Source of the DNA: Marsupella aquatica
Taxonomy: Eukaryota; Plantae; Marchantiophyta
Assembly: GCA_973895155.1 (NCBI GenBank)
Contig: OZ316893.1
Coordinates: forward strand, 8,929,839 to 8,993,838
Direction: 5' to 3'
Length of the DNA stretch: 64,000 nucleotides
Shown piece by piece: positions 21,325 through 46,450 of the stretch; the stretch's first letter is position 1, and the number at the start of each line of letters is the position of its first letter. The notes beneath the pieces are model-generated. The model had not been told where the DNA came from. It ran no database searches and worked only from the letters and a program-made list of their open reading frames with translations. A program made the position numbers and the translations under genes.

Positions 21325-21623
21325 CTCGGGGGTCTCACTCAATGGAAGCCTCCCCATCACTTGTGACATTTTTAGGCCTCAAACCCCCTAAAATGTAAGT
21401 CAAAAAATTATATTTTTCAACCGCTTTAAAGTTGGAATACTCTTTGAATATTCTAAAAATTTGGTTAGAATGACCCAAATGTTCTTATAAGTCTCAAAAT
21501 TGGATTTAAAAGACCCTATTATTCTTATGAAAAAATTTAAGTCTTCCCTTTGAACCAATAAAATGACTGTATTCCTCATCGCACGTGATCATGTGTCATT
21601 TTTGTGGAAATGAAACCCCCAAG
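21325..21623 (+). mobile_element. hAT-type MITE (family A), 299 bp
   Basis: TIR ctcgggggtctca / tgaaacccccaag; TSD ttgaggag/ttgaagag; aligns end to end with 24778-25073. Confidence 0.85.
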
Positions 21624-23275: not shown

Positions 23276-23599
23276 TCACTTTATTCTAGGTCATAACCAT
23301 TGTACTTTGAATTCCTGCCGTACCCTAGATGTTGGTATGCTCTGCACAATGGCATCTTGGAGTCCCGTGTTATGGAAAGATAGGTACTAGAGAAAATTTA
23401 CATATGGAAAAACAGGTACTAGAGAGTATTGACCTTTCAATGATTGTATAGTGTACAAGGAAGGTACACAAAACTTTAATATATTCCCTTCCCAAGCCCG
23501 GTTTAATCTGACGGGCACCTTGACGCCTTTTCGGGCACGTCAAATTGTCAAATGACGGCCCGAAAACACGCAATTTGACGGATATTCGTGTAGATTCTC

Positions 23600-24150
23600 C
23601 CGAATGAACCCCGACTTCCCCGGACCTTTCGCGAACTCCTCCCGAACACCCCGGACCCGAACCCGAACTCCCTCTGACCCGAACCCGGACTCCCGGGCCC
23701 TTCCCGGACCCTCCCCGGACCCCCACCCGAACCCTCCCCGGACCCTGTCCGGACCCTTCCCGGTAGCTGGGGAAAAGGGGCCGGCCGGGGTAAGGGGGGC
23801 CCGGGGGACGGGATTCGGGGAAGCGGGGACGGGGGGGCGGGGTTTGGGGAGGAGGGGAAGGGGATTCGGGGAAGCGGGGGAAAGGGGGCCAGGATTCGGG
23901 GAAGAGGGGAAGGGGGGGCGGGGTTTGGGGAAGGGGTTACGGTTTGAAGGGGGCCGGGGTTCGGGGATGCGGGGAACGGGGTAGGGGGTTCGGGGAAGGG
24001 GGTTCGGGGAAGGGGGTAGGGGGTTCGGGGAACGGGGTGCGGGGTTCGGGGACGGGGCTCGGGAATTGGCGGCCGGGGAAGAGTTAGGGGCGGGATTAGG
24101 GTTAGGGGGGCGAGATTAGGGTTAGGGGAGGCGCGATTAGGGTTAGGAGC
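23600..24150. repeat. Left subterminal GC-rich array (CCCGAACCC/CCCGGACCC, then GGGTTCGGG; TTAGGG units)
   Basis: C-rich 23600-23762 switches to G-rich 23765-24150; gattagggttagg x3 at ~24094-24147. Confidence 0.8.
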
Positions 24151-24291
24151 GAAGATTAAGAGCTTTAGGAGGGGGAGGAAGTAGATGGTTTAGTATAAGT
24201 AGGAGTCACTAATCCATTTTACTAATCCAAAGTCTCATTGTGTTTCTCTCTCTTGTGGTTTAGCATTAGGGAGAGATCGGAGGGATACATT

Positions 24292-24647
24292 GGAACTCTT
24301 GTACGCGCATGCTTTGGGCTTGGCTCGGTCTGCGATAATTTGTATGAGAAGTTCCTTATATCGCCTTAACAACTTTGCATCATTGTTTTGTTTGAAAGTG
24401 AACTACTTGCGAGTAAAGAGATACCCATGTGCATATGCGAAGAGCTTTGGCTCGGTCTATGATATTTCATATGGGTATCACAATTTCTCGTACATATGTT
24501 CACTTGAAAGATAAACGATTGTGAAGTTATAGATATTACATTAACATAGGTTGAAGTAGGGATGTTGACAAATATAAGAATTTGGGAAACTTTCCTGCGC
24601 ATGCTTTGAGCTTAGGCCCAGTCTGCGATAATTCAGCAAAGTAACCC
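24292..24647 (+). ncRNA. Array of three predicted structured RNA hairpin motifs upstream of the transposase ATG (24292-24355, 24420-24479, 24584-24647)
   Basis: Each copy: variable outer stem, 4-bp stem, UGC-NNN, GAGC-loop-GCUC, GGUC, 4-bp stem', AUAHUU bulge, outer stem'. Compensatory changes are seen (cgca/ugcg vs caua/uaug). Function unknown. Confidence 0.65.
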
Positions 24648-24723
24648 ATTGTACTATTTTTGTTATATCCACAAAATCAAAAGAATCAACCCTTTTATTT
24701 TTTTACCATTGAAAGTCGTAACA

Positions 24724-27580
24724 ATGTCCGATGAAGAGGATTTGCATGAAACTGGATATCATTCCACTACTCCCAGGCTAGGGGGTCTCACTATATGGAT
24801 GCCTCCCCATCCCCTACGACGTTTTTAGGCCTCGGACCCCCTAAAATGTAAGAAAAAAAATTATTTTTCAACCCCTATAAAGTTGGAATATTCTTGGAAT
24901 ATTCCAAAATTTTGGTTAGAAAGACCCTAATGTTCTTATAAGTCTCAAAATTGAATTTAAAAGACCCTGTTGTTCTTCTACAAAAATTCTTAAGTCTTCC
25001 CTTCAAACCAATAAAATGACCCTATCCTTTGTCGCACGTGATGTGCCATTTTTGTGGAAGTGAAACCCCCGAGCTCCCAGGCCTGGTCCAACTCGTGTGC
25101 AAGAACATTCTTCAAAACAATCTCCAGTGTGGAGATATTTTGAACGATGTGATGCGCCTTCAACATGTCATGATGTCAATCGTATCTATCAAAGATGCAA
25201 GTATTGTTTAACATACGTTACTCATCATGCAACACGAGCAAAGGCGCATTTGATGGGAAAAATCCAAAAAGGGGATGCGCCCCCTTGCATGCAACTCTAT
25301 GGTGTCGTCGATTTGGATGCCATCAACATAATGTACAATGTGATAAAGGTTCCACCAACCTTGAAGTACAAACAAAGGGATGGAACTCATATCTTGCGGG
25401 ATGTGAGAGGCCGTAGGCCAAGCGTTGGAAGTTCATATTCGCAAGCATCCACACAAGGGTCAAACTATGTTGACATGAATGATACACATGTGAGGGAAGG
25501 AGATAGGCCAGTAAATCTTCCTAACCCAATTATGGATGCCTATCAAATTCCAAATAGAACAAATTTGGATAAGCTTTGGGCGAAAGCTTTCTACACCAGC
25601 GGTATTCCATTCAATGTTTCAAATAATCCTTTTTTTAGAAGCAGTCATATAGACTTCAAAAGGGATTTCAATGGTTACTCTCTACCTACGATGCGGAATT
25701 TGCGATTGAAATTATTGGAAGACAGTAAGGAGGATCTCACAAAGGACATGACGCAAACTTTAAAGGAGGCAAAACCTTATGGGTATTCTCTTTCTTCAGA
25801 TGGATGGGAAAACGTCCGAATAGAACCTTTGATGAATGTCATGTTGTTGACTTCTAAAGGTGACTTCTTCAAGGATAGTTGGAATGCTGCGCAAGCTGAC
25901 AAGAAAGATGGGAAATATCTTGGCGAGATGTGGTTGAAATACATTGAGGATATTGGTGGAGATCATATTATTCAAATCGTAACTGATGGAGCACCCGCAA
26001 ATCGCGTAGCAAGTTGTGAGGTAGTCATGAAAAAGTATCCTCATGTCACTTGGAGCTGGTGTGTTGCCCACGTGTTTAATTTGCTGCTAGAGGATATGTG
26101 TGGTCACAAGCGTGTAGTGCTAGATGATGATGGACAGAATCCATTCCAAAAGATTTTTAAACGCTTGAGGTGGATAGTAAAAGCAGTTTCATCATCGCAA
26201 AAGCTTTCTGCAATATTTGCAAGAAAATCTCCCGACAAAAAACTGTTGAATCCAAATGCAACTAGATTTGCGACCAATTTCCTAATGGCACAAAGAGCGT
26301 TGGAGCTAAGAGGAGCTTTACAACAGATGGTCATTGATGATATTTGGCAGTCTTATCGTGATAGACTTCCATTGCAACCAAAATCAACTGGACACATGAC
26401 GAGGGGAAAGGCAGACAAACTTAAAATGTGGATACAACAAGATACATTTTGGGTTGAAGTGAAGGATACAGTTAAATTCTTTACTCCGTTGGTGAAGATG
26501 TTGCGAGAATTTGATGGTAATTCTCCGCAATCAGGTTGGTTGTATTGGAGTTTGAAAAGAGGGATTGATGTTTTGAAAGCAAGCATGGAGGATTGTCCAT
26601 TGGTAACAGAGGTATTGAAACCAAAGATACTAAAAGTGTATTTGGATCAAAAAAAATCTCTTACCACTGATTTTATGCTAGCGGAAACATATCTCAATCC
26701 CCAAATGTTTTTTGATGAGGACATAGATGTCGTTGGAGATCCAGAACTCTATAGGGGTTTCAGTGAATACATTGCTAGATATTCAGGACAACAGGTGATG
26801 GAGGGGATCAACCATGATTGTGACATCGAGAACTTATTTCTGCCATCCACAATCAAGCCATTGACGCCCAAAAAACTTTCCCAACACATCAATAGCGATG
26901 GGAGCCCCCCAATCAAGTATAGGTAACGTCAGTCCAGTAGAGTGGTGGCATGCGTATGGTGCAGATTATAAACATTTGAAAATCCTGGCGCGAAGAATCT
27001 TACACCAAAAAGTGTGTGCATGATCAGCTTGCGAGCGAAACTGGAGTTCGTATGGATTTATACATTCCAAAAGTCGCAATCGATTGACAAATGATCGAGC
27101 AAAAGATTTGGTGTTTGTATTTACAAACATGAGGGTAGAGAAAGGGCTAACAAATGTTTGAAACCCGCATACGTTTATATATGAACTTTATGACCAAAGA
27201 AAAAGAACAAATAATGGACCTAGACCTGTCTCCATGGAGTTGTGCGGCAATGAAGAGTACGATGCAACACATGCGGCTCTTGGTGAAGAAGATGTCGAAG
27301 ATTATGATACAATTGATGATGCTGATGAATTGCTACACGGATTTTCACTAGATAAGGATAGTGAGTTCTTGACTCGTATTCCACCAGATATAGACATCAT
27401 TGATGTAGGGGACTGGGAGAATGAAATGGATTTGGAGATGTATCCTACAATTGATGAATCGCAAATCCAAGACGACGAAGATGCATCACTGGACACAAAC
27501 TTTGTGATGCCTTCCCAAACTTTGCAAATGATGTGGACACAAGCAGACCATATTTCGACGAGCAACGCACAGGCATAGCA
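24724..27580 (+). pseudogene. hAT transposase (BED finger + DUF659-type RNase H fold + C-terminal dimerisation domain), disrupted
   Basis: Motifs SPVWRYF..CKYC..AKAHL, LSSDGW, QIVTDGA, WCVAHVFNLLLED, NATRFAT. After a frameshift near 26860-26930 it continues PVEWWHAYG...CA*SACERNWSSY...HSKSRNRL. A MITE sits after codon 18. Confidence 0.92.
24778..25073 (+). mobile_element. hAT-type MITE (family A), 296 bp, inside the transposase ORF
   Basis: TIR ctagggggtctcac / gtgaaacccccgag; perfect TSD CTCCCAGG (24770-24777, 25074-25081). Removing it restores the reading frame. Confidence 0.92.
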
Positions 27581-27998
27581 GGGCATCAGACGGATGGAAG
27601 GACATCAACCTTTTTTCATGGATACAACAATCATGAAGGTAAAACTTCAAACGACCCACATGCAAACTGGAAACACCATGCAGGTCCACCCTTGAATGCG
27701 TATGCAGGGAGAATGAAAAGGATTTGGAGATGTATCCTACAATTGATGAATCGCAAATCCAAGACGACGAAGATGCATCACTGGACACAAACTTTGTGAT
27801 GCCTTCCCAAACTTTGCAAATGATGTGGACACAAGCAGACCATATTTTGACGAGCAACGCACAGGCATAGCAGGGCAGACGGATGGAAGGACCTCAACCT
27901 TTTTTCATGGATACAACAATCATGGAGGTAAAACTTCAAACGACCCACATGCAAACTGGCAACACCATGCAGGTCCACCCTTGAATGCGTATGCAGGG
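27415..27998. repeat. ~293-bp tandem duplication at the transposase 3' end
   Basis: gggagaatgaaa(t/a)ggatttggagatg...gcgtatgcaggg occurs twice, near-identically. Confidence 0.9.
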
Positions 27999-29376
27999 CC
28001 AAGTGTCATGAATCCATATTCGTTGAACAGGCCTATTGGCCTTGGTGGGTTTCAAGGAATATCATCATTTCAAGAAATGTCGCACAATGTTCAGTCACAC
28101 AATCGTGATCCACTCAGTTGGGGCGACAAACAAGACGAGTGGAATGCGCTTTTGCGCAAAAATCGTAACAACAATGCACAAAATTTCTTTTCACAACCTT
28201 GAAGCATCTTTCCATTAGGACAATATCAAGTGTTGCTACTCTTATATTGTCTTAACTGACATAGACAAAATTATAAACAGTTATATTTTTTGTAACATGA
28301 TTGTATTGTCTTGCAGTGTGTTGTACCTTTTATTATTGTACAATTATGATTGAATAATTTATTTCTACTTGCATTTGAGAATGTCATAGAGACACACCAA
28401 CGCAACATGCTTTCCAAATCTCCAACACTGACTATTTCAAAGTAGTCAATATATCACAACAAAGTCTCCCTCAATGCCTCTAATGCCCTAGTACGCTAAG
28501 ACAATTGGGCTGAAACTCCAAGCCACAATAAGTTTAGGGATACCTTGTCGTTGGCCATAGCAGCCGTAGTCCATACCAGCCCCTCTCCATTAATTGGTCA
28601 GTTCATTTCACTATGCGAAGATTTAGTCCAACAATAGAGCACCATCATATTCAATAATAATTAGGTCGAGAGGACGTGATTATTGGACCTGAGAATGTCA
28701 TTGCTTGAATAAACCTTCTCATAATAAAATAAACTTAGTTGAATTTCAAGTTGTAATGAGGGCCCATTTTTGGGGTGGGTGAATGTTGTTGACCGTAGCA
28801 GCTGCACTACTTGAAGTTGGGCAGAGTTTATATGAGTACGAGAGAAGTTGTGAAATGAACACATCGGCCACATAATCAGTAATTTTCTGGTCGGGATCTG
28901 ACCAGAAAATTTGAACTGAGAATTTTCCATATTACCGAGGGACTACATGATCACCCTGCAGTTACCCATGGAATGCAGTTACACACTCACTAATGGTCGA
29001 GAAGCTTCTCAAGCTCACCCATTTATATCTTACGCAATGCTCTTGAAAAACTTAATTAAATATTTCCTTAGGTTTGTTCTTTTTCAGACATGGATATACT
29101 CAAGGCAGGAAGAGCCTTTCTCACTTCGTCTGCACTTCTCCATGGTACACTTATCCATGGTACGCTTATCCGTGGTATGCTGTAGTCTATACGATATAAA
29201 CTAGGCGTGAGTAGAATTGGAAAAACTGTTAGCAATTTTTTTCAGGACCTGGTCATGAAACCAATTAATGGAGTACGGCTGCTACGGCATTAATTTATTG
29301 TACAAGCAATTGGTGGCCAAGGAGAGCAATGCCATGATGATGATCAGACAGGGTCACGGGAATTCTACAAGATCGG

Positions 29377-30867
29377 TGTCGTGGGGATTCTTTGTTTAGT
29401 AAGTTCCTTCTAAGTATAGCTTAGTAGTATAGGATAGTAGTTTGAATTCTCGCATTACATGCAGTCTACAGTGTACATGCTACAGTGTATGATCTACAGT
29501 GTGCATGCTACAGTGTACGATCTACAGTGTGCATGTTACAGTGTACAATCTACAGTATGCATGCTACAGTGTACGATCTACAGTGTGCGTGCTACAGTGT
29601 ACGATCTACAGTGTGCGTGCTACAGTGTACGATCTACAGTGTGCATGTTACAATATACGATCTACAATATGCATGCTACAGTGTACGATCTATAGTGTGC
29701 ATGCTACAGTGTACTGTCTACAGTTGCTCCACTCACGTAACTACAGTACTAGCACACTTACTTGCCTTGGATGTGTGACACATGGCTTCCATCCGTGTGC
29801 CATGCTTGATCCTTGTGCTTGAGGTGTGAGCACTATAAATAAAGAGGAGAGGGGCTCTCTCCCCTCACTCCCCATTTTTCGTCAACTAAGTTGTGAAGCC
29901 TTAAAAACCCATTGGACTTGATGCTCTCTTCTATGATTATAACCCTTATGAAGTAGACCCACTCATGCACTCTTGCTTGGAGCTTCAGCTCGGCCAGGGA
30001 TATTTTGTATGAGTCGGACCTTCAGAAAGTGTTGTCATTTGATAGGAGATGGTTATTAAATTCTAAAGAGTTGAAAAGTGCTCAATAATGCATTGACATC
30101 ATATGCTCCTTTTTTTTGGTGAAATCCTTATGAAGTAGACCCACTCATGCACTCTTGCTTAGAGCTTTGGCTCGGCCAGGGATATTTTGTATGAGTTGGA
30201 CCTTCAGATAGTATTTTCATTCAAAAGAAGATCAACCTATTAAGATAAACATTTGCATGTATATACTTAGAGTTAACTCAATGCATAGTATTTGTTTGAA
30301 ATGAATGATCTTTTTGTTGAATGATTCTATATCTTTCCATTAAAAATGAAAATTAGTTGGATGGAATATTTGACAGTAAGATAATGCCCAGACCAGTACC
30401 TATTCTTTCTCTCCCTAATCCTTTCCTTATTAGAATTCATGTACTCCAAAAAGAGATAATGCGTTAGCATATGACTTTTCACTTTGGAGAAGCATTTGCA
30501 ACTGCGATGTTAAATTCAATAGAGCCAATTGTGTACCCTTATGTAGTTTACGAGCAGGATTGGGCTTGCACAATTTTTATCTTGTATTGAGATGGATCTC
30601 AACAAACCTCCCTCCGATGAACCTCCTGTTTCTTTCTCGTTGGGAGATATTCGTTTTGTAACTCGACCCAAGGTAGCTGCCAAGGAGGTAATTGTCCGTA
30701 GGTATGGAGAAAAGGGTTATGATGTTGTGCTTTCATCCATAGAACCGTTCCTTGTGGTGTCTGCTACCCAGTCTAGAATAGTAATCATGATCTTAACTTA
30801 AGTTCTCTCTTGACACTAGCAGCCATGGCCCGGTGCTTCCTCAAGAACCACATTTTCCCCCCAGACA
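29377..30867 (+). repeat. 5' LTR (1491 bp) with ctacagtgt minisatellite, TATA (tataaata ~29835) and two hairpin motifs
   Basis: Highly similar to 36792-38241; begins tgtcgtgggg and ends cccagaca. Confidence 0.95.
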
Positions 30868-30870
30868 TGT

Positions 30871-30888
30871 TGGCGACCATACTGGGGA
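30871..30888 (+). promoter_or_regulatory. Primer binding site, tRNA-Arg-like
   Basis: TGGCGACCATACTGGGGA lies 3 nt after the 5' LTR. It is complementary to a tRNA 3' end ...GGUCGCCA; the Arg assignment is from memory. Confidence 0.7.
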
Positions 30889-30965
30889 AACTTGAGGCTA
30901 GTGTCAAAGATAAAAGGATATTGATGAGAGAAGAAGCTTGATAGAAAATAGAAGCAAAGGAAAAG

Positions 30966-33293
30966 TTGTTCACAATGGTAGGAGGAACTATGGAAGAGAT
31001 GACTGAGATGTTTATGAGTTTGATGGAGGCTGAAGCACGAAGAGAGGCACCTGAGAACCAGAAGAAGGAGGAAGCAAGTCGTATGACCAAGTGCTTACAA
31101 GCTTTGCTAGCAAAGTTTGGGCAGTTCGACGGGAGAAGAGCAACCCGGTACTTGAAAGAGTATTGGACAGAGGTAGCCATCCACAAGATCAGTGAGAAGG
31201 TTGCCATTCATGAATTTGCATCATTGGTGGAATCAGAATTGAAAGACATCATCACCAAGATTGCTGAAGGAGCCAAAGAGGATTGGAAAACATTTGAAAT
31301 GAGGGTGAGAGAGGAGTTTCGATTTGAAGATCCAGATCGAGTTACTGCAGCCACGTTCCTTGGTTGGGTACAAGAGAAAAACAAGAAATTGGGACCTCAA
31401 GAATTATTGAGGGAATTCAATAGGCGCTACCATCAGCTATCTTCAAAAGATCTAACAATAATCAATCTCAGAAGAGGGGGTCTTTTGATCCGTGCAGCTG
31501 ATATACCTTTGAGGGTAGAGTTGGACAATGCTCTAGATGTTATTGCTCCAGATGCGGATGAAGTCACTTGGGATCAAGCAAAAGCTGCAATCCACAAGGT
31601 GACAAAGCAAAGGAGGAGAAGGGAGGTCGATCAAGAGGCGGAAGCTCCCATTCTAGACTTGAGAAAAGTCAGAGAAGAAAGCACTACTGATGGAGGAGAA
31701 AAAGAAGTCAAAAGCAGCATCACAGAAGGGGGCGACATAGCATCATTGACAGACATGATAGCAAAGCTTGCTCTTTCAATTCAAACCTTGGAGAACAAAA
31801 ACCCTGGTGGAACATCACTAGCAGCCTTGAATAAAAACTGGAATTGTTTGTGGTGTGATAGCAAGGAGCATCACAGAAGGGATTGTGGAGAACTGACAGA
31901 AGCATTGCGACTTCGACATGTCAAGTTTGTGGAAGGGAAGATTGCATTTGTTGATTCTGGAGAGCCAATACCAATGAATGTGAACCGAGGAGGAATGAAG
32001 CAAATTGTGGAATAGAGAATGAGAGAGAAAGTTTCTAGTGCTGCAGCGATGTATGGTGATCCTTCTGTCTTCAGTCTTCAGGTTAAGAAGGATTTGCCTT
32101 CCATAGAACATCTTGATATTATTGAGAGGAAGAGACTAGCGGAAAGTATCCGGAGAAAATCCGGTTGGGATGTGCCTGTGTTGATCAACTCTATCACTGC
32201 GGAAGTAGGAGCAGCATGGAATGCTGCTGTGGAAGATAAGAGGAGGTATGAAGGCACTTCTATGGAAGAAACCCAAAGGGGAGGAAAACAACAGAGACCC
32301 AAAGCAGGACCTCGCTTCACACGTCAAGCCAAAGAGAAAGGAGTTCGATTTGAGGAGCCTAAAGCGTCCACAAGCAAGAGTCAAGAAGAAATCTCCCATG
32401 GAAGCTCAATGGATACTGACACCCCAAAGAAAGGTGCTAAGAAGAGCCCAGGCTATTTGCTTACTAGAGAGGTGGAGCAAACTATTGATCCAGAAGTGAT
32501 TGCCGAGAAATTTTGGCAGCAAGAGGCTAGGGGGTTCACTAATGGAGAACTTTTTGGAAGTCTTCGTTTAGACTTACAAGGCAAGATCTTGGATAGGGCA
32601 AGAAGAAAAAGGGTTTACAAGGAGGGACCTCATGCACTAACTGCCAAGATTCTTAGCTATGACTATGAAGATGATCTAGAAGATGACGAAGAAGAAGAAG
32701 AATTGGAGGGAAATGTATTTTGTGCTACCATGAGTCACCATGAAGCAACTTCAGGTATTCATGGCAATGTAGCCCTACATGAGGTGGATTTGCGGGAAAC
32801 AATCCGACCGTATTGGACAAGAGCTTGCCCGGAGATTGAGGTGCAATTGCTTGGTGCTGAAGGAGGAATTTGGGCACTCCTAGATTCAGGATCTGAGTTG
32901 AATCTAATGTCTAAAGAGACATACCAAAAAGGGCATTGGAAGATTGATTGTGACATCAAATGGAATGTCAATTCAGTGGGCACAAGGGCAAATCCCTTGT
33001 GGGGAGCATGTCCCGAGATCATGATCAAACTTGGGAATGTGGTAGAAGCTATCAATGTCTTTGTATTTGAAAAACTTCCATATCCTTTTATTCTTGGTGT
33101 TCCTTTCATCACGGAATTACGAGTAGAGACCATGGTACTTGACGATGGTACTCACATGGCAAAAGTGAAGAGCAAGGATGACTTGAAGAAGATTCAATTT
33201 CCCACACTTCGGCCAGGTAGTACAAGAGATCGTCGGGAATTAAGAACAATGGAGGAGTACAGGTCCGATCAGAGTATGAAGGGTTTCGACTAG
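30966..33293 (+). pseudogene. Gag-protease ORF with an in-frame stop at 32013
   Basis: Zinc knuckle CLWCDSKEHHRRDC; aspartic protease ALLDSGSELNLM...FILGVPF. ORFs 30966-32015 and 32019-33293 share one frame. Confidence 0.88.
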
Positions 33294-33334
33294 GCGTCCC
33301 GCTAAGAGAAGCGAGCAGGCAGGACGCCAAGCCT
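33281..33334 (+). promoter_or_regulatory. Predicted -1 programmed ribosomal frameshift signal
   Basis: In-frame slippery heptamer G GGT TTC (33281-33287), then stem ggcgtcc/ggacgcc (33293-33328). The -1 frame is open into the pol ORF. Confidence 0.75.
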
Positions 33335-36300
33335 TTAGTCTCGTCTATGGAGGTTCATTCCTCTTTTGTTGGTGTGAGTAGGACTAGTGAAGTGAGCTAT
33401 TTTCATAAAGGTGGTGTGAAGAGGCGAGCTCAGAAGATGTTGGAAAAGAAAGAAAACGATTTGTTCACATTAGGAGTGTTGAAGGTTGAAGAGAGAATAG
33501 AAGGAGTACTAGAGGAAAGGGGATTACCACCCTCTCTTCGAGAGATTATTGGAGACATTGAGGAAGAAAATGGAGAAGTGGAGGTGGAAAGGGATGTGTA
33601 TGGTTACATTGAGCACTTTGCAGAAGTACACACAAAGTACAAAACAATGGACAAGAAGGTGCGACCTGCAGCAGTTCCCTTGCCATCTGAGGCTAAGGAA
33701 ATATTGAAGTGAGCAAAGGAGGAGCCAAGTCTTAGAGATCATACTAAGATTGGGCATAAATTCACTGAGGAGACGTTGCTCAAATTAAAGGTTGGTGATA
33801 AGGGTTTACTAGAGGAAGAGAGAAGAGCCTTCAAGGAGATGATCATCAAACATGAAAAGGCCTTTTCTTTTTCCATTGGAGAGATTGGGTGTGCTGATCC
33901 AAGGGAGATCACACCAATGGTAATCTTCACTGTTCCACATGTTCCTTGGAACCTTAAGCCAATTCCTGTGCCACGAGCACTGATGCCTAAATTGGTGGAG
34001 TTACTCAAGGAGAAGTTAGATGCCAAAATCCTTGAGAGATCAAACGCTCCGTACTCAAATCGGTGGTTCACGGTGAGAAAGAAGAATGGAAAGCTAAGGT
34101 TCATTCAAGACATGCAGCCACCAAACAAGGTCACCATAAGGAATGTGGGCACAGGACCTGTGGTGGATGAGTTTGCTGAGGAGTTTGCTGGGAGAGCAAT
34201 CTACTCCATTGGCGACTTATACTCAAGGTATGATCAGTTTCAGCTTGCCCAAGATAGCAGAGACATTACTGCTATGAGAACGCCACTAGGGTTGTTGAGA
34301 ATGTGCACCCTTCCTCAAGGTGCAACTAACTCAGTGGCCCATATGCAAAATGCCATGAATAGGATTTTGCAACCGTTTGTTCCAAAGAAGACTAGACCTT
34401 TTCTTGATGACATCCCCATAAAAGGGTGTTTGTACAAGGAGAGGGATCAAACACTTAGAGGAGATGGTCTAAGACAGTTTGTGTGGGAGCACTTACAAGA
34501 TGTGGGAGCTATTCTACAAAGACTCAAGGAAGTAGGAGTAACTCTATCTGGAGAGAAGTCAGCTTTCGGGTTACAAGAGATCATGGTAGTAGGGCAAGTT
34601 TGTGGCCCTTATGGAAGAAGCCCATGTGAAGCAAAAGTGGATGCCATCAAGGATATGGAAAACTGCAGAACTACCTCAGAGGTAAGGAGATTTCTTGGGG
34701 CCTGCATCTTCTACAGAATATGGATACCACATTTTGCTCACATTGCAGAACCTCTCTATGATCTTCTAAGGAAGAATGTGAGGTTTGTATGGAGTGCAGG
34801 CCATACAAAGGCTATGCAACAATTGAAAGAAGCTTTGACTAGCTCACCGGTATTACGACCTCTGAAGTACAATGGTATTGACCCAATAATTGTGACCATT
34901 GACTCAAGTCCTCATGCATCTGGATGGGCAGTTGGGCAAGATGAGGAAGGACAAAGGTTTGCCGCACGGTTTGGGGCAAAAATATTTACAGAAAGACAGA
35001 GGCATTATCCTCAAGTAAAACGAGAGTTGTGGGGTGCGAAGGTAGCACTTCGCCAAGAAAGAGACTATTTGATAGGAGCAAATGTAATACTGGAGACAGA
35101 TTGCCTACCCTTGTTGGGAATGATAGCCAATTGTGATACTCCAGATATTGCAATGCTTCGATGGATAGCATTCATCAGAATGTTTAATCCTGAGTTAAAG
35201 CACATTGCTGGGAGAGATAATCCAGTAGCTGATATGCTTTCCCGAGCTCGCTATAGGGACGAGGAGGACCAAGGAATGTGCCTTCATAGTACATATGGAG
35301 AAGATGAAGAGGAATTGAGGTTTGAAGAGGAAGCTTATTCTGGGGAATTGTTACAGATAGGACGTTACCTTGCCACCTTGCAGAAAGATTCAACATGGAG
35401 TAAGCAAGACTTCAACAAAATTCGGAAGAAGTCTTACCAGTTCATGATAAGAGGTGGATCCCTTTGGAAGCATCCAAAGAAGAAGGGGCACATACTTCTA
35501 AGGGTCATTGGTAGAGATGAAGAGAAACACAAAATTTTGCATGACTTACATGATTCCGACGTGGCAGGACATAAGGGGCGAGAAGCTACTTACGAAAGGA
35601 TTCGAAGACTATATAGGTGGCAAGGAATGTATGTAGATGTAAGCAAGTATGTGGAAACTTGCAAAGTGTGTCAACTCTACTCGAAGGTGAAGCATAGAGA
35701 TGGACTAAAACCCACGTACCCTCTTTCCCTACACTACCAATGGGCTGTAGATGTGGTACACATGCCGAGAGGAGTAAGAGGAGCCAAGTACCTTGTCTTG
35801 GCTATTGAGGACCGCTCCTCTTACATTGAAGGTAGAGCCTTGACAACAAATAAGACCGAGGCGATATGTAGATTTGTATTGGAGGACATCATTGCAAGGT
35901 ATGGATGCTTTGATCGCATGAGGGCAGACAGAGGGGAGCTCAATGCAGAGGAAGCAGTCGCATTTTTCAGGAAGTTTAGGGTGAATCTCAAATTGACAAC
36001 TACTTACAATCCTGAAGGTAATGGCAAGAGTGAACGGGGACACCAACCAATAGTGAATGCCTTGATTAAGGAATGCAAGGGAAGAATCTCACTTTGGCCA
36101 AATTTCCTTTCCCTAGCACTTATGGCACACCGAACAACTTGCACATCGGTAACAGGATATGCACCTTCAGAGTTGATCAATGGTCAACTTCCACTCATGC
36201 CAATAGAAGAAAATATTAACAGTTGGAGGGCAATAGAGTGGGAGGATGGTGTATCTCAAGAGGATTTGATTCTTCGTCGCATAGAACAGTTTGATCACAC

Positions 36301-36718
36301 TCCTACAAAGATCCAGGGCGCTATTAAACAATTGAAGCAAAAGAGAATGGCTAACAAATCCCGCTTTGACAAGTCCCATCGATTGAGACCCAAGACAATC
36401 CAAGAAGAGGATTGAGTCTTAGTCTCTGAAGGCGGTCTCGGACAAGATCACTCCTCGATCAAGAAATTTGCACAACGTTGGAGGGGCCCATTTGTGATAG
36501 TTACTACTCACCCAAATTCCACTTACACTCTCCGTGAATTGGATGGAGCAATTCATCGTGTGCCTTATGCAGGAAAAAGAGTGAAAATATTCAAAAGGCA
36601 AACACGTTTTTTAGAGGAAGATCCCATCGATTCAGACCAAGAAGAGGAAGAAGAGGAAGAAGAGGAAGAAGAAGATGAAGAACCTGAAAAGCAAGAGGAA
36701 GAAATATTCATTGAGTGA
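33281..36718 (+). pseudogene. Pol (RT-RNase H-integrase) with in-frame stops at 33710 and 36413
   Basis: RT motifs KLRFIQD, DLYSRYDQF, LPQGATNS, FLDDIPIKG. RNase H IDSS..., ETDCLPL, NPVADMLSR. Integrase HHCC (LHDSDVAGH...CKVCQ), VDVVHM, RADRG, NGKSER, GPF; acidic tail. Confidence 0.92.
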
Positions 36719-36791
36719 AGTACAAGATTAGTAGGGGTGACTATTAAGTGTGGTCCAGACCGGAGGTTGCACAGGTTTAGTAAGGGTGATA

Positions 36792-38241
36792 TGTCGTGGG
36801 GATTCTTTGTTTAGTAAGTTCCTTCTAAGTATAGCTTAGTAGTATAGGATAGTAGTTTGAATTCTCGCATTATATGCAGTCTACAGTGTACATGCTATAG
36901 TGTATGATCTGCAGTGTGCATGCTACAGTGTACGATCTACAGTGTGCATGTTACAGTGTACAATCTACAGTATGCATGCTACAATGTACGATCTACAGTG
37001 TGCGTGCTACAGTGTACGATCTACAGTGTGCATGTTACAATGTACGATCTACAGTATGCATGCTACAGTGTGCATGCTACAGTGTACTGTCTACAGTTGC
37101 TCCACTCACGTAACTACAGTACTAGCACACTTACTTGCCTTGGATGTGTGACACATGACTTCCATCCGTATGCCATGCTTGATCCGTGTGCTTGAGGTGT
37201 GAGCACTATAAATAAAGAGGAGAGGGGCTCTCTCCCCTCACTCCCCATTTTTCGTCAACTAAGTTGTGAAGCCTTAAAAACCCATTGGACTTGATGCTCT
37301 CTTCTATGATTATAACCCTTATGAAGTAGACCCACTCATGCACTCTTGCTTGGAGCTTCGGCTCGGCCAGGGATATTTTGTATGAGTCGGACCTTCAGAA
37401 AGTGTTGTCATTTGATAGGAGATGGTTATTAAATTCTAAAGAGTTGAAAAGTGCTCAATAATGCCTTGACATCATATGCTCCTGTTTTTTGGTGAAATCC
37501 TTATGAAGTAGACCCACTCATGCACTCTTGCTTAGAGCTTTGGCTCGGCCAGGGATATTTTGTATGAGTTGGACCTTCAGATAGTATTTTCATTCAAAAG
37601 AAGATCAACCTATTAAGATAAACATCTGCATGTATATACTTGGAGTTAACTCAATGCATAGTATTTGTTTGAAATGAATGATCTTTTTGTTGAATGATTC
37701 TATATCTTTCCATTAAAAATGAAAATTAGTTGGATGGAATATTTGACAGTAAGATAATGCCCAGACCAGTACCTATTCTTTCTCTCCCTAATCCTTTCCT
37801 TATTAGAATTCATGTACTCCAAAAAGAGATAATGCGTCAGCATATGACTTTTCACTTTGGAGAAGCATTTGCAACTGCGATGTTAAATTCAATAGAGCCA
37901 ATTGTGTACCCTTATGTAGTTTACGAGCAGGATTGGGCTTGCACAATTTTTATCTTGTATTGAGATGGATCTCAACAAACCTCCCTCCGATGAACCTCCC
38001 GTTTCTTTCTCATTGGGAGATATTCGTTTTGTAACTCGACCCAAGGTAGCTGCCAAGGAGGCAATAGTCCGTAGGTATGGAGAAAAGGGTTATGATGTTG
38101 TGCTTTCATCCACGGAACCGTTCCTTGTGATGTCTGCTACCCAGTCTAGAATAGTAATCATGATCTTAACTTAAGTTCTCTTTTGACACTAGCAGCCATA
38201 GGCCCGGTGCTTCCTCAAGAACCACATTTTCCCCCCAGACA
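36792..38241 (+). repeat. 3' LTR (1450 bp)
   Basis: Copy of the 5' LTR with a shorter minisatellite. Confidence 0.95.
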
Positions 38242-38545
38242 TCGGTCACCGAATTGATATGTAGACGCAAAATACAGTCACCGATTTCAAGTCGCTAAAA
38301 ACATCTAACTTTGTCACTATGAAAAGATATGTGAAAGCAACAGAGCACCAAGACTGAGTAGAGTACAACCATTTGACTATTCGAACGATTGTGTACAGGT
38401 ATGAGGATTATAGACCGGCAATATGCTAACTATGTACACACAGCAATAGCGGAAATTATGATGAAAGACGAGAAAACATCGGACTTAGGTACCCATCCTT
38501 CTACAAAATCATTCTCAATTTATTGTCAAAGTTCACCCTTTTATA

Positions 38546-38800
38546 TCCTCTCCTTTCTGAATTCCAATTCGAGGTTGGACATCCTCTCGTCAGCTGGTCT
38601 CCACCCTTTTAGCTGCTCTTCACGCGAACCAAAGGCAACGCCTCTGGATTCCTCAAATACTATGAATGATGCATTGAAATGAAACAGGTTCGTGAATTCT
38701 AAAGGCTGTCATCTCGGTTCGTGTGAAGAGCAGCTGAAATGGTGGAGACCAGCTGACAAGAGGATGTCCAAACTCGAATTGGAATTCGGAAAGGAGAGGA
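38546..38800. repeat. Long inverted repeat (85-bp arms 38546-38630 / 38716-38800), foldback
   Basis: Arms are reverse complements with 6 differences by eye; further imperfect pairing continues toward the loop. Confidence 0.9.
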
Positions 38801-38828
38801 GAGGCAGGTGCAATTGTGCAAATTAATG

Positions 38829-39620
38829 CCATAGGCCGTAGCAGCCGTACTCCAATAATTGGTCAGTTCATTTCACTATCAGAAGATTGATTCACGCAAC
38901 GGAGCACCGACATATTCAATAATAATAAAGTTGGGAGGACCTGAAAATTTGACCTGAGAGTGCCGTTGCTTGAATAAACCTTCTCATAATGAAATAAACT
39001 ATGTTCAAGTTCTAATCAGGACCCATTTTTGGGGTAGGCAAATGTATTGGCATTGGCCTCGGTTCCCATGCAAATGAATGTCATTGGCCGTAGCAGCTGC
39101 GCTACTTGAAGTTGAGCATAGTTTATTTGACTATGAGACAATTTATGAAAGCATCGGATCGATGACATACTCAGTAATTTTCTGGTCGAAGGACCTAAAA
39201 ATTTAACCTGAGAGTGCCGTTGCTTTCATAAACGTTCTCATAATGAAATAAACTCTGTTCAACTTCAAGTTGTAATGAGTGCCCATTTTTGGGGTGGGAA
39301 AAGGAGTACGCGTTGGCCTTGGTTTGCATGCGCATGAATGTCATTGGCCGTAGCAGCTGCGCTACTTGAAGTTGAACAGAGTTTATTTGAGTACGAGAGA
39401 AGTTGTGAAACCAACGGATCGACGACATACTCAATAATTTTCTGGTCGAAGGACCTGAAAATTTGTCCTGAGAGTGCATTTGCTTTCAGAACTTCTCTTG
39501 TACTCAAATAAACTCCGTTCAACTTCAAGTTGTAATGAGAGCCCATTTTTGTGGTGGGCAAAGGAGTAGGCGTTGGCCTCAGTTTGCATGCGCATGAATG
39601 TCATTGGCCGTAGCAGCAAT
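38829..39620. repeat. ~255-260-bp tandem units, related to 28554-28920
   Basis: ggacct(g/a)aaaattt..cctgagagtgc starts at 38937, 39191 and 39451; a diverged copy is at ~28672. Confidence 0.85.
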
Positions 39621-40432
39621 AGCGGAAAAAATGATGAAAGACAGGAAAAGTGAGTGGACTTAGGTATACATCCTTCTACAAAATCATTCTCAACTTGGGC
39701 GGCTAAAACCATTGCGATGTTGACTTTGTTGAACTCATTGTGCTACACGATCTTCTTTTGGAAATGATTTCAGAGAAGGATCAGTACCTGAGTCCACTGT
39801 GCTACCGTCTCTCATCACGTCTATTTACAACCATCAAATTACGACCATCAAATTGGTCTCGAAGCTCCGTTTCTTTCACAAACCTTCTCATGTAGGCAAA
39901 TTTCTGTGAGTTTACTTTGTAATTATGCCCGCGACCGGTGTACATAACCTAAGGCGCTGACATACCTGTAAACATCTATACTGAACAACATTCCCACTCT
40001 TTCAATCATTAGAATCCTAATTTGTTACGGTGCCATTTTGTGTGTCCAAAAATATGATTGTGAGCCCAACAATATGCTTCCAAAACCTATGGCTGATTGG
40101 AGGATGGAGTATTCTTACGAAAATACACATTCTCCAAAAGGCGACGCCATGCCCCCAATGAAAAATATATGTACTCAATGGGATATGCAATGTAATGTCA
40201 CTCCAAAATCTCTTTACCAATTACAAGTTGAAAATAATTGTCAAAGAGGATATGCCGCTTCTATTTTAACAAAAGGTCTCTAATAGTAAGTGCATGAAAA
40301 TAACATCAAAATGTAGAGACTATTGGTTTCAGTTCCTTTTGTTGTTGTTGTCGTCGATGGCTTTTGTTTTCACCTCTGCCTGTTGTTGACATCGTCGATG
40401 GCGCCGAATGGATCGTTGCAAATTTTGCTCAT

Positions 40433-42281
40433 CTATTGATGGTTGGTTGGCTGCCGCATATTGTTTCCACTCATAAAGTCGACCACTGAATAACAATCTG
40501 TCAAATTCTCCATCTGACAAATTATATTCATTGATTGTGAAATGTTCAATGGAGTTTCATCTATTTGCATCGCAAGTATAGTCTCTTTAGTCATTTCTTC
40601 AGTGTTTTGTTGAGTCTCCATTGATGTCATTTGCTTCAACAACCCTCGTTGCTCATACTCGCGTTCATGAAATGGTGTGCGACACCAATATTTTTGGCTT
40701 TTCTTCAACTATTTAGACAAGCAAGCATGATGCCATATATGACCGCATGTTCCCAACATGGAAACAGATTCAGGGCCCCAAGGATATAGGCACCAAGTAC
40801 ACTTGTCGTCTTTTTCACAAACAAATGCTGCCATAGTTTCATCCTTTTTTCACTTATAAAAAAACCTCTCAATACCTCCTGCGTCAACCTCCACATCTGG
40901 GAAAAGATTGCTGTGCCCTGTAGGATCTATGATTTGCATGTGAACAAAATTTGGCGATGATAATTCTCCTTCCCCTTTGTTTGACCCCATCCCCAAAGCA
41001 CCATTGTTAAATTCTTGCACCTCTTCATGAAGATTTGATATGATGACTGCTTGCATTGTAAGTTCACTTTTAAGATCATTAATGATCTTGTCCTTCTCCT
41101 CAAGTTGTGCCAGTTCATTGCATTGAAGTTCTTTTTCAGCAAGTTGTTTTGTCAACTTATTGATTTCTTCCATCTTGTCAAACAATTGACACTTGTACAA
41201 CATCACTTCAAAATTGGTCGTCGGCTCGGTCTGCTTCTTCTCTAGTGATCTCATCTTTAAATCAGCTTGTTGCAATTGCGACTTAAACTTTTTGATGCTG
41301 CCACATTCACATAGCTCCACTACATACTTCGTGCGGAGATTTGTCTCAATCACCTCAACAACATCTGCCCCCAAGCTCTTGCATATGTTGTGCAGGTTGA
41401 ACTTATCCTTGTTAGCATCAGTAACATTGTTGTTCTTTGCATGTGGAGTTCTACTCCCAACACCTACAAGAATTGGTTTTTTGGTGTGCGTGGACTCCAC
41501 ATTGGTTGGTGGTGCTGCACAGTCAGGCATGGAGACTCGGGGAAGTACAGCCGCTTTCCCCTTCTCATGCGCATAATTATCCCTCCCCAGTCTCATCTAG
41601 CTTTCTTTTGGATCCCTTTTTGGAAGTCTCCATGGAAGGGTCCTTTGCAATAATTGTATTCCTATTCGTTGCAATCGCAACCACTGATGGATGCACCTGA
41701 TGAGTCAGCTTGCCAACAATGTTTTCCCAATGATAATCCACCTTCCACTTGAGAATAAATTCAACAATCAGACATCGGATAAAAGGAGGATAAACGGAAC
41801 TCATTTTCGTTTGGGCTTTGTGTGGAGCAAACTCTTGATATCGTTGCTGCCAATGTGATTTAACACCTGCATGTGTTACTTTGGACATGGTAAAATTTTT
41901 TTGCGCCCATGATCTTGTTGCCCAAAGATCCGGATCGTGAAAAACTTTTTGTGCTAATGGCCAAAAGTCTTTCTTTGGCATCAACATCTCCAATTCCTTT
42001 GCATTCATAGGCCATTCGTCATGGGGAGGATTTACATTAGGCGTTAATATACTCCATTCATCCTTCATACCCTCATCTTCCCATCTTCTTGTGTTTGGCG
42101 CCGGTGTTCCATCAACCTTGGGTTTAGCCTCATAGTGAATGCCAATGGTTGTAAGATTATCCAACACAGTATTACGAAGAGCTTCATCGTCACAATAGGA
42201 TCCTTGACCATCTTGCATGGTAGGATGTTGTGTTGTGAACTCTTTGTCTTCATCATCAGAAGACAATTCCCATCGTACCAT
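40433..42281 (-). pseudogene. Cargo gene: unknown N-domain + coiled coil + RING-H2 finger (putative E3 ligase), disrupted
   Basis: ORFs 41577-42332 and 40850-41596 join by a frameshift. Reading through stops in the second frame gives CTWCLYPWGPESVSMLGTCGHIWHHACLSK*LKKSQKYWCRTPF (40670-40801), continuing to 40433. Heptad-rich region INKLTKQLAEKELQCNEL. Confidence 0.75.
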
Positions 42282-42515
42282 GTTTGCGATGTGTACAAAA
42301 GGTCTACGATATTTGACAATGTACAAACACATTTAGCACAATTTTGGGCATTCATGACAAAGTTTGATAGAATATTATGAACAAAATACAGAACATTGTA
42401 ATTGACATACAATGAATAAATATATAATCCTTAAGGTGACCTTTACAAAACTATGTAAACCCTAATCTCTAAGATATGGACTGTTGTGCAAATGCAATGT
42501 GCAATCTGGAAACGT

Positions 42516-44049
42516 TCAAACTATCTTCAAACTCCAAAAAGCACAATCCATTCTTTTCTTCGCATCCGTGGCCATCATTTCACAAATTATGACATCCAAT
42601 TTGGGGCCATGCACTTGTGCACTCCAACCCCTTCCCAAAAACCGTGAACTCTTAGACATTCCATCCCAATTCTCTGTCAACAATGTCTCAAAAATATTCC
42701 CCAAAGCATATATATTGGTATTTTTGTTAAACTCTATAGGGGTAGGTTGAACAAGCTCCGGAGCCAACTGTGGAAATTGTTTTTGGTATGCTGCTGCTAT
42801 TTCTGTTGCTGTGGGCCACATCCGATTACCTGGTGATTTGCACTGTGATTTATGCTTAGACAAGCCAAAATCACATAAACCAACATACACCTTAATAGCC
42901 ACATCGTGCTCGTGATCAAAATGAAGAAGGATGTTTCCAAAGTGAAGATCACAATGAAATCGATCATGCTCATGCAAGTATTGCAGTGTCTCCAGCAAAG
43001 CCAAGACGATTCCCAAATGGTTCTCCAACAAGAGTTTCTTCTCCGAAATGAACTTGAAATCAAGGTTCGTCGTGATCTGTGCCTTCCCCTTGCTCTTTGA
43101 CGATATGCCGCACTTATCAATAAAGCTACCAAAATCACCTCCATTGTAGTGATCATAAATAAGTTTTGGCGGATCCTCAATAGTCAACGCAAGAGCTCCA
43201 ACGATTCCCTTATGATTCAGTCCTCCCATAAGCACTTCTTGTAATGCGTCAGTTCATCTCTTATGCTTGTCTCCATCCTTGAACCGTTTTGCGACTAAGA
43301 TCACGTTGACGGGAGTGAGAGGACAATCTAATATACGACAAGTGTATACCTCTCCTTGGATTCCTTTCCCAATGCGACGTGTGTTGTGCACCTGCTCACG
43401 TTTAAGAAAATAGATACTCCTAACCTCTGGAACTACACGCGATGGACGTGTTCCTTTTCAAGCACTTTTGATGCTGAGATCCCCAAAGTGCACAATCTCG
43501 TTATCATATTTGACATTGCTATCAGATTTCGCCATTGCCAACTCTTTACTCCACTTCACTAGCAATTCTCTCTTGTGTGTGTGTACATCCCGGGGTTTCC
43601 CAAACTTGGAGAAGCATGTTTCCCGGTTTCTCAGTTTCATCTTCAAATGACTTTATTTGCTCTCGTGTGAAATTATCCTCCTTCTGTACGCTTTCCCGCA
43701 TACAACGGGTTATCTCACCAAGAAAGTTCTTGTATCCTTTCTGTCTGTGTCTTGTGAACTCCCTCTCGAACCCGTCCACCCCATACTGTTTTGGTTGAGT
43801 GTAGCGATAAAGTATCTCTTTCCATATCGACACTACCACATTGTGTCAAACCTGTTTTGCCTCTTTGTTTGCCCCCTTCCATTTTTGTTTCTCGGCCATT
43901 TTGCTAGGATTCCTAGCATGTTCGAGAGTATTTCGAGCATTCTTCAATGCGTCTAGAGCAACAAGATTCGGCTCATATCCCTCATTCACATGTTTTGTGA
44001 TCGTCTCCAACACTTGCCTATACTCTAAACTAAAATTATTGATGGCCAT
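42516..44049 (-). pseudogene. Cargo gene: protein kinase with a ~220-aa N-terminal region, disrupted
   Basis: Manual translation: IGKGIQGEVY, LVAKRF, ALQE, HCDLHFGNILL, CDFGLSK, LAPELV, NIYALG. Several premature stops and one frameshift near 43600. Confidence 0.85.
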
Positions 44050-44255
44050 GTTTTCCCTTCACAAAAGGAATATGTGAGGGAGGAACAAACTCTTACCGGG
44101 ATTTAAATAAAATCCTTCCAATAAGGTTTCAACGGCCAGCCTGAAAATTACAAGTCGTATTGTTATTATCTCTTCCCGGTTTGTTTCTCCCATGCATTAT
44201 GTATTTTTATTGCACACATGATTTTAATTACCTTTAAATATAACAACAATAAAAG

Positions 44256-44617
44256 AGAAAGACAACAGTTGTGAAATATCGCAGACCGAGCGGACGCTCA
44301 AAGCATGCGCACAAAAGTTCTTTTCTTTCAAAGTTGTTATATTCCTGCTTTGACATATGTGATTTGGTGTCTATAATTTAACACTCATTTGTAATTCAAG
44401 TAAAAATATTCTCGGCGAATCGTGGTATCCATGCAAAGTATCGCAGACCGAGCCGAAACTCTAAGCATGCGTACATGGATTCCTCTATCTCTGCAAATGT
44501 TTTACTTAATGAACAAAGGAGACTTAATTGTTAAGGTGATATTAAGAAATTATTGTACGGAGTATCACAAACCAAACCGAGGCTCAAAGCGTGCACGTAC
44601 AAGTGTTTCTTTATATC
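44256..44617 (-). ncRNA. Array of three predicted structured RNA hairpin motifs upstream of the cargo genes (44269-44314, 44424-44483, 44538-44617)
   Basis: Same consensus as 24292-24647, on the - strand; e.g. ggaauccaugua cgca ugcuua gagu uucg gcuc gguc ugcg auacuu ugcauggauacc. Confidence 0.65.
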
Positions 44618-44659
44618 CCTCTATTTGGCTCTAAGGTTAGGGTTTAAAACACAAAGAAA

Positions 44660-45075
44660 ACTTCAAAAACCACAAAACAAAACACAAACAAACAAAAACA
44701 AACCAAAAACCAAAACCAAAAACCAAAACCAAACACTTACCTCCTCCTCCTCCTCCTCCTCCTCCTCTCCTCCTCTTCTGCAAAACCAAAAATGAGGAGG
44801 GGAGGAGGGATCTCCTCCTTTTATCCTCTCCCGAGCACCCTCTCGAGCCTTTCCCGGCCGGCCTCCTCCTCCAACCCTAAACCGTGAAACCCTAATCCTC
44901 CGAGCCTCCCATCCCAAACCCCAAACCGGACCCCGAACCCCAAACCCCAAACCGGACCCCCACCCGAACCCCACCCGGACCCCACCCCGAGCGCCTCCGC
45001 CCTAGACCCGGACCCGATTAGTCATCCGGACCCCCACCTGAACCTCCTCCCGAACCCGGCCTCCCGAACCCGAAC
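44660..45075. repeat. Right subterminal array: (A/C)-rich tract, (CCT)n, CCCTAA and CCCGAACCC/CCGGACCC units
   Basis: Mirror image of the left G-rich array. Confidence 0.8.
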
Positions 45076-46106
45076 CGCGGCCGAACGTTTCCTTTCCCGG
45101 ACTGCTTCCAAACCCGGGTGCCGGGTTGCCAATTTGCCGCTCAAAAACGCCCAGTTTGACGGGCAAGGTTAAACCGGGTTCCCAAGAGAGAAATGAATAG
45201 TTGTACCCCACTGGAGGAGGGCCTTTGAGAGAAAGAGAGGAGGGAGGGGAATGAAGGGATAGAAATAAAGGAAATATGAAATAAACTGCAATTAGATGGA
45301 CCGTTTTTCCAATTTTGGGGTTTATTATTTTTATTTGTTTAATCTTTATGAGAGATCCCAAAATTTGTTATTCCAACTAAACTTCCAACTTTTTACTTAG
45401 AAATACTTTTTCAATGAAGGCCAATGAGACCAAGCTCCAAACAATTTTTCTCCCCAAGACCTGGTTTGCTTGACATGTCTTGGCATCTCGATTAGTCTTA
45501 TTCTGGCTTATGCCCATATTATTTTCCTAGCCGGGCGCTCAGCACGCTCTTTGCCCCCATTTGCACCTTTTGCCGCCCACATTTGTTCCATCTTTCATAA
45601 AATTGACAATGAAGAGCTCTTGCCAAACTCTTGCCCATACTCTAAATACCCATCTGAGTCTTTTGCCCCCTACTTTGTGTTCACTTGAATTTCACAATTT
45701 GATTGCATAAAATTATGTGCAATTTGAACAAGATATGCGCAATGATAACACTTTTCACAATAAAATGAGCAACAATAAATGATGACCATTTGTCAAAATC
45801 CAACTGCCTTTTTCCAAACAGTTTGATCCACCCAAAAAACCTGTTAATCCCCTCATCCCTGCCCTTCTTGCATTCCCTATACACCTTGGCTCACCATTTG
45901 CACCTCCACCCTCCTTAATGCACTCTCCATGCCAAAGCCCCATTGTCTTCGTGGTGAGCTGGAGACAAGGGTGGTGACAGCAAAGGGTGGGGCAAGGGAG
46001 CGACAGGGTGCGAGGGGGGGGGGATGAAAAGATGAAAAGGGGGAGGGAAATGAAAAAAGAAGTTATCCTATAAGACTAACCATGGACTTGAACCCTCCCC
46101 AACATC

Positions 46107-46450
46107 CTTGGGGGGATCACTTCCATAGAAGTGGCACATCACGTGCGACAAAGGATAGGCCCATATAAATGGGTGTGGCGGAAGACTTCCTAAGTTTGGT
46201 GGAAGAACACATAGGGCATGTTTTATTGACTGGTCAACTTTAAATAACACATAGGCCTATTTAATTGTAAAAAACATTTCTCTAAAGTTTTTAGAGGTTT
46301 TTTTAGTAAAAAATGACAAAATTTAAAGAAAGAAAGGATTTTGCATAAAAATATTTTTCACTTAATATAAGTTGGGGGGTCAAACCCTAAAACATCGCAC
46401 GCAATATATGGCCCTCCATATAGTGACACACCCCCCCCCCCCCCCCCAAG
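46107..46450 (-). mobile_element. hAT-type MITE related to family A, 344 bp
   Basis: TIR cttgggggg / ccccccaag; perfect TSD CCAACATC. The first ~50 bp are the reverse complement of the family A 3' end. Confidence 0.85.

What the first reader, a model, noticed from the sequence alone, without database searches (positions are those of the whole stretch)
24292..44617. Unrecognised covarying RNA hairpin motif arrayed x3 in both putative leaders of the hAT
Seen: six copies fit P1-[4-bp P2]-UGCUUN-GAGC(3-4 nt loop)GCUC-GGYC-[P2']-AUAHUU-P1' (24292, 24420, 24584 on +; 44269, 44424, 44538 on -). Each is in the sense orientation of the downstream gene. P1 sequence differs in every copy yet pairs (gauacccaugug/cauauggguauc; auccaugua/ugcauggau; uuguacg/cguacaa). 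P2 covaries (cgca/ugcg, caua/uaug, ugca/ugug). Deviations are mostly G-U on one strand, one loop is UUCG, and the sequences between copies look unrelated. Conserved loops with free stems point to selection on an RNA structure rather than a DNA repeat. I could not match it by eye to hammerhead, twister, HDV, hairpin ribozyme, snoRNA, 5S, SECIS or histone stem-loop consensus. Inference: a protein-binding, export, translation-control or processing element.
Basis: partly seen in the sequence, partly recalled or inferred. Interest (0 to 1): 0.92.

Follow-up and report, generated by a model that had tools for sequence, protein, structure and literature searches.

The report
TAR-like RNA hairpin shared by transposons
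One bulged hairpin sits in ten copies in front of the genes of two unrelated jumping genes in what is likely a liverwort genome; its stems change sequence but stay paired, it matches no catalogued RNA family, and its tip resembles the HIV TAR protein-binding site, so it is likely an RNA docking site for a protein that would switch these elements on, though neither expression nor function was tested.

Summary
All six hairpins are at the stated places, inside both ends of a 21.7-kb hAT element (8-bp target duplication). 11 of 20 pairs show two-sided changes, and G-U outnumbers A-C 15 to 1 on the sense strand. The two hAT arrays are one duplicated 360-bp cassette (69% identical), so there are about four independent lineages, not six. 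The predicted fold is a rod: free stem, 6-nt AUAHUU bulge, covarying stem, U.C, then a U-N bulge on a fixed G-C/A-U/G-C/C-G stem with a UUCG-type loop. That tip reproduces the Tat-binding core of HIV-2 TAR, without its hexaloop. No Rfam, literature or outside-sequence match was found; no genome or RNA data were available. Best reading (0.4): a protein-docking element in nascent transposon leaders that raises expression. Rivals: translation bypass, splicing switch, processing. New family, function untested.

The parts
23497..45178 (.). hAT DNA transposon, 21.7 kb, with convergent genes read inward from both ends
   Evidence: 10-bp terminal inverted repeat and identical 8-bp flanks at 23489-23496 and 45179-45186; DUF659 and hAT dimerisation homology
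24288..24356 (+). Motif copy hL1 (A-U pair of the tip changed to G-U; 3-nt loop)
24414..24483 (+). Motif copy hL2 (bulge U lost; caps a ~150-nt rod)
24580..24649 (+). Motif copy hL3 (A.C mismatch in the tip)
24724..28200 (+). hAT transposase, broken: start codon 24724, MITE insertion 24778-25073 (8-bp duplication), frameshifts downstream
   Evidence: N-terminus matches Calypogeia fissa homologues; MITE
24215..24269 (+). Candidate branch point, pyrimidine tract and 3' splice site (24263/24269) just before the left array
   Evidence: crude consensus scan; inferred, no transcript data
29377..30867 (+). 5' LTR of nested Ty3-type retrotransposon; TATA-like box at 29833
   Evidence: LTR pair 98.5% identical, 1427 of 1449 aligned bases; TATA position
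29952..30021 (+). Motif copy LTR5a, at the tip of a predicted rod 29865-30122 that begins at the inferred transcription start
30134..30203 (+). Motif copy LTR5b (182-bp duplication of LTR5a region)
30975..36415 (+). gag-pro-pol of the Ty3 element (RT, RNase H, integrase), in several ORFs
36792..38241 (+). 3' LTR
37325..37394 (+). Motif copy LTR3a (full consensus, C-UUCG-G loop)
37507..37576 (+). Motif copy LTR3b
42516..44049 (-). Broken kinase-domain cargo gene; start codon 44049 by homologue N-termini (a second AUG at 44193 also resembles the family's N-terminus)
44258..44327 (-). Motif copy hR3 (tip intact; rod 44361-44213)
44420..44489 (-). Motif copy hR2 (tip intact, UUCG loop; rod 44527-44378)
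44544..44613 (-). Motif copy hR1 (six C-to-U changes; predicted misfolded)
44141..44740 (-). Candidate splice signals around the right array: donors 44740 and 44231 (8 of 9 consensus), acceptors 44631, 44141, 44057
   Evidence: crude consensus scan and sequence; inferred

Best explanation
The motif is a conserved hairpin shared by a hAT DNA transposon and a Ty3 retrotransposon, likely acting as RNA, and it likely works as a TAR-type docking site on the nascent 5' end of their transcripts, where a protein would bind and would raise the element's own expression. Shown: copies, covariation, strand bias, position upstream of start codons, sequence-fixed tip. Predicted: the rod fold. Inferred: the first bulge U reaches the A-U pair two steps up (U.A-U triple) and an arginine-rich partner reads the two flanking G-C pairs; the invariant AUAHUU bulge is a second recognition site; long imperfect rods present the tips and arrays of two or three give multivalent binding; the partner is more likely a host factor (or one element's product used by both) that supports elongation or protects the transcript. 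Because it would act on nascent RNA, it would not matter whether the array ends up in an exon or an intron, or that it is full of upstream AUGs.
For: Stems are free, tip and bulges are fixed: identity between lineages 0.78 tip+bulge, 0.60 P2, 0.47 P1, 0.37 outer. The four tip pairs show no two-sided change while 8 of 9 P1 pairs do, as expected if the tip is read by sequence. In 8 rows the first bulge base is U in 7, the second varies (U/A/G), then G 8/8, A 7/8, G 8/8, C 7/8; papers name U23, G26-C39, A27-U38 as critical, a 2-nt bulge in HIV-2, G28-C37 as required and U25 as dispensable (PMC1524922, PMC11885821, PMC6189040; passages). The young LTR copies all keep the intact tip. In the LTR the first rod starts about 30 nt after the TATA-like box. 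Two-sided changes between the two hAT cassettes keep pairing in 17 of 20 (null 9.5, p=0.0008) and 15 of 21 (null 10.3, p=0.033) cases. Upstream AUGs are not depleted (9 vs 10.7, 8 vs 9.4, 16 vs 11.5 expected), which argues against an ordinarily scanned leader.
Against: No transcript, start site or binding was observed. TAR's hexaloop, needed for cyclin T1 contact (PMC1524922 abstract), is absent, and the pair under the bulge is U.G in 6 of 8 rows, not Watson-Crick as the arginine-sandwich definition requires. A loose U-bulge + GA tip occurs 18 more times in the window by chance, though none has the full four-pair stem, and TAR was picked after seeing the motif. No Tat-like peptide common to both elements was found; the most arginine-rich 9-mers hold 4 R or fewer, e.g. 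in gag. Only 2 of 6 hAT copies keep an intact tip. In the hAT ends the array is 0.5-0.8 kb from the terminus and follows a candidate intron, not clearly at the cap. About four lineages from one window; outer rods show weaker bias (12 G-U vs 7 A-C). That plants lack NELF-type pausing and HEXIM/7SK is recalled, not checked.
Confidence: 0.4

Rival explanations
1. Translation element: the rods let ribosomes enter internally or shunt past a long, structured, AUG-rich leader, with the tip binding an initiation factor or helper.
For: Leaders hold 9, 8 and 33 upstream AUGs with rods of -25 to -66 kcal/mol; the left array ends about 60 nt before the transposase AUG; shunting past a large stem-loop is established for plant pararetroviruses (PMC3542737, passages).
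Against: The caulimovirus hallmark, a short ORF ending just before the stem, was not seen ahead of the first hAT rods after the candidate acceptors; in the LTR the rods are about 0.75 kb from gag with many AUGs between; the right array may be spliced out.
Confidence: 0.2
2. Splicing switch: a protein bound to the hairpins decides whether an AUG-rich cassette exon is kept or skipped, as L5 does on P5SM.
For: The right array is bracketed by an acceptor at 44631 and a donor at 44231, after a near-perfect donor at 44740; skipping leaves a 92-nt AUG-free stretch before the homologue-supported AUG. Precedent PMC3378873 (passages).
Against: The left array has no matching downstream donor, and the LTR copies have no donor upstream within the inferred transcript. 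Splice sites come from a crude consensus scan.
Confidence: 0.13
3. Processing signal or small self-cleaving RNA that releases the rods as stable small RNAs or decoys.
For: Tandem arrays in LTRs recall retrozyme hammerheads (PMC10226581, passage); long imperfect rods resemble precursor hairpins.
Against: No ribozyme family at gathering score or in the E<=10 lists; single-rod topology with few fixed bases; conservation is at the tip, not in a 21-nt duplex.
Confidence: 0.12
4. Packaging, dimerisation or export signal of the retrotransposon RNA that the hAT carries as a captured leader module.
For: Two intact copies near the 5' end of the retroelement RNA; gag has a zinc-knuckle-like motif and an RRRR run.
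Against: The hAT copies kept accumulating compensatory changes after the cassette was duplicated, which a DNA transposon would not need for packaging.
Confidence: 0.08
5. DNA-level or neutral repeat (protein-binding DNA site, palindromic relic, or a short coded peptide).
For: hAT ends do carry subterminal DNA repeats; G-T wobble also favours one strand in single-stranded DNA; several copies start a short ORF at the same place.
Against: Stems change completely yet pair; with RNA parameters 9 of 10 sense copies fold within 4 pairs of the model against 6 of 10 (within 4) or 7 of 10 (within 5) with DNA parameters at about a third of the energy; pN/pS 0.86, 0.61, 1.07 with stops in two of three frames and a frameshift.
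Confidence: 0.05

Closest known systems
HIV-2 / HIV-1 TAR (Tat-binding bulge; arginine sandwich motif, also in 7SK SL1)
   Same: U-first 2-nt bulge directly below G-C, A-U, G-C, C-G; second bulge base free; tip of a long imperfect rod near the 5' end of an LTR transcript; more than one copy.
   Different: UUCG-type 3-4 nt loop instead of the hexaloop; U.G below the bulge instead of A22-U40; extra U.C mismatch and 6-nt 3' bulge; also in a DNA transposon; no Tat-like protein identified; no Rfam hit.
ENE triple-helix elements of plant and fungal transposons
   Same: A structured RNA motif carried by plant transposable-element RNAs (PMC6633196 passages and the title of the cited Tycowski 2016 paper; its spread over hAT and gypsy is recalled).
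   Different: [quoted passage not shown]
P5SM cassette exon of plant TFIIIA
   Same: Structured RNA bounded by splice-site-like sequences (right array), proposed to be read by a protein.
   Different: No 5S rRNA likeness (no Rfam hit); arrayed; in leaders of transposons; LTR copies lack a flanking donor.
Retrozyme hammerheads in plant LTRs
   Same: Repeated structured RNA inside LTRs.
   Different: No hammerhead core or three-way junction; element is autonomous-type Ty3.
Caulimovirus leader stem-loop with ribosome shunt
   Same: Long, structured, AUG-rich leader of a plant retro-transcribing element.
   Different: Three separate rods with a conserved tip; no short ORF ending at the base of the first hAT rod.

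Membership tests
HIV TAR | U-first 2-3 nt bulge 5' of G26-C39 and A27-U38 | tested here: met
   U 7/8, G 8/8 with C 7/8, A 7/8 with U 7/8; all intact in 4 of 8 rows (features)
HIV TAR | G28-C37 and C29-G36 complete the upper stem | tested here: met
   G-C 8 of 9 and C-G 8 of 9 distinct rows, rest G-U
HIV TAR | Apical hexanucleotide loop contacting cyclin T1 | tested here: not met
   loops are 3-4 nt, UUCG or variants
HIV TAR / arginine sandwich motif | Watson-Crick pair immediately before the bulge | tested here: not met
   U.G in 6 of 8 rows, U-A in 1, unpaired in 1 (definition)
HIV TAR | At the very 5' end of the LTR transcript | tested here: inconclusive
   LTR rod begins about 30 nt after a TATA-like box; start site inferred; hAT start sites unknown
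HIV TAR | Cognate arginine-rich transactivator; U.A-U triple on binding | not testable with these tools
   ORF scan gave no shared Tat-like peptide; needs binding assays
Any Rfam 15 family (ribozymes, snoRNA, miRNA, riboswitch, IRES, TAR) | Match at gathering score | tested here: not met
   0 hits in the window; only weak hits far below gathering over the three arrays
ENE | Large U-rich internal loop near the 3' end | tested here: not met
   loops and position; definition
P5SM-type splicing switch | Element inside an alternatively spliced cassette exon | tested here: inconclusive
   flanking sites at the right array only; no RNA data
Small self-cleaving ribozymes | Site-specific self-cleavage | not testable with these tools
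   no family match; cleavage needs an assay
Conserved-peptide uORF | Open frame with pN/pS well below 1 | tested here: not met
   0.86, 0.61, 1.07; stops and a frameshift
hAT superfamily (host element) | 8-bp target duplication, short TIR, hAT transposase | tested here: met

The most novel reading that the evidence does not exclude
Liverwort transposons of both classes share a portable TAR-like RNA module through which an arginine-rich factor activates their transcription from the nascent RNA: a Tat/TAR-style circuit evolved independently in plants, which lets unrelated elements plug into one activator or anti-silencing pathway.
Probability: 0.18. Interest if true: 0.92.

Novelty: new variant of a known kind. 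Interest (0 to 1): 0.72.

Why it matters
Few structured cis-RNA elements are known in plant transposons. A module kept by purifying selection in both a cut-and-paste transposon and a retrotransposon points to a shared trans-acting factor that controls unrelated elements through RNA. The motif is small, defined and mutable by design (free stems, fixed tip), so the factor can be pulled down and the step of expression identified in a tractable liverwort. If the TAR-like reading holds, it is a convergent arginine-sandwich switch in plants.

Tried and rejected
No whole genome and no sequencing-run data were available, so copy number, expression, start sites and splicing are open. Exact-pattern scans outside the window: viral contigs 0, metagenome contigs 4, prokaryote genomes 5; all 9 loci score at most 11.2 bits with the model, i.e. 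chance. Protein-guided locus searches in viral contigs found no relatives, so no second species' DNA was seen; absence there says little because plant genomes are not held. Literature: searches (motif strings) gave no description of the motif; supplements were not searched and transposon libraries there could hold it; the Tycowski 2016 paper was not held. Rejected: coded peptide; miRNA precursor (conservation at the tip, 6-nt bulge, Rfam far below gathering); ENE; hairpin, hammerhead, twister and HDV-like ribozymes, kink-turn, H/ACA pocket, HBV epsilon (Rfam negative; feature comparisons recalled from knowledge). The 251-aa cargo ORF has no homologue and only weak Atlas leads. No further copies near the host genes of the window (next model hit 16.8 bits). 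The prokaryotic promoter scan was uninformative.
Full report
Setting. The window is eukaryotic. The transposase's best named relatives are Calypogeia fissa proteins at 72-79% identity, the retrotransposon's named relatives among the 120 listed of 410 hits are Riccia, and the kinase's are Calypogeia, so the host is likely a leafy liverwort (inference). A hAT element runs from 23497 to 45178 with a 10-bp terminal repeat and identical 8-bp flanks. It holds a transposase read from the left end (AUG 24724, matching homologue N-termini; interrupted by a MITE and frameshifts) and a kinase-domain gene read from the right end (AUG 44049 by homologue N-termini; broken by stops). A Ty3-type retrotransposon with LTRs 98.5% identical (29377-30867, 36792-38241) is nested in it.

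Noticed in passing
window 38820-39620 and 28560-28920: A second hairpin family inside the hAT, between the 3' ends of the convergent genes: 260-bp tandem units, each a long near-perfect hairpin (51-54 nt arms, up to 92% complementary), precursor-like; split by the Ty3 insertion; only sub-threshold miRNA-family hits.
   Followed up: partly
window 38546-38800: 255-bp near-perfect palindrome (112-nt arms, -172 kcal/mol), MITE-like or hairpin-RNA source.
   Followed up: partly
window 40850-42332 (-): Two adjoining cargo ORFs of the hAT (251 and 248 aa) without Pfam match; the first has no homologue at E<=0.001 and only weak Atlas leads; candidate accessory or regulator gene.
   Followed up: partly
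window 42516-44049 (-): Kinase-domain gene family with a distinct N-terminal domain, multi-copy in Calypogeia fissa, here as hAT cargo.
   Followed up: partly
window 9077-11233 (+) and 5364-5945 (+): Intronless DUF7025/AAA ATPase with a fungal-type lid domain and an intronless maltose-acetyltransferase-like gene in a plant-like region; candidates for horizontal acquisition; origin not tested.
   Followed up: no
window 24778-25073, 21328-21623, 46107-46209+: Three copies of one MITE with an 8-bp target duplication (hAT-type); one interrupts the transposase after codon 18.
   Followed up: partly
window 20102-20252 and 46990-47670: Inverted arrays of an ~19-bp repeat on both sides of the hAT; may mark the ends of an older outer element.
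   Followed up: no
window 30592-30801 and 30825-30938 (+): A 69-aa ORF inside the LTR, and an in-frame extension upstream of gag starting inside the LTR just after a candidate acceptor, closed by two stops.
   Followed up: partly
window 29418-29720 and 36833-37090: 14/28-bp tandem array in the U3 part of both LTRs, upstream of the TATA-like box; possible enhancer array.
   Followed up: no
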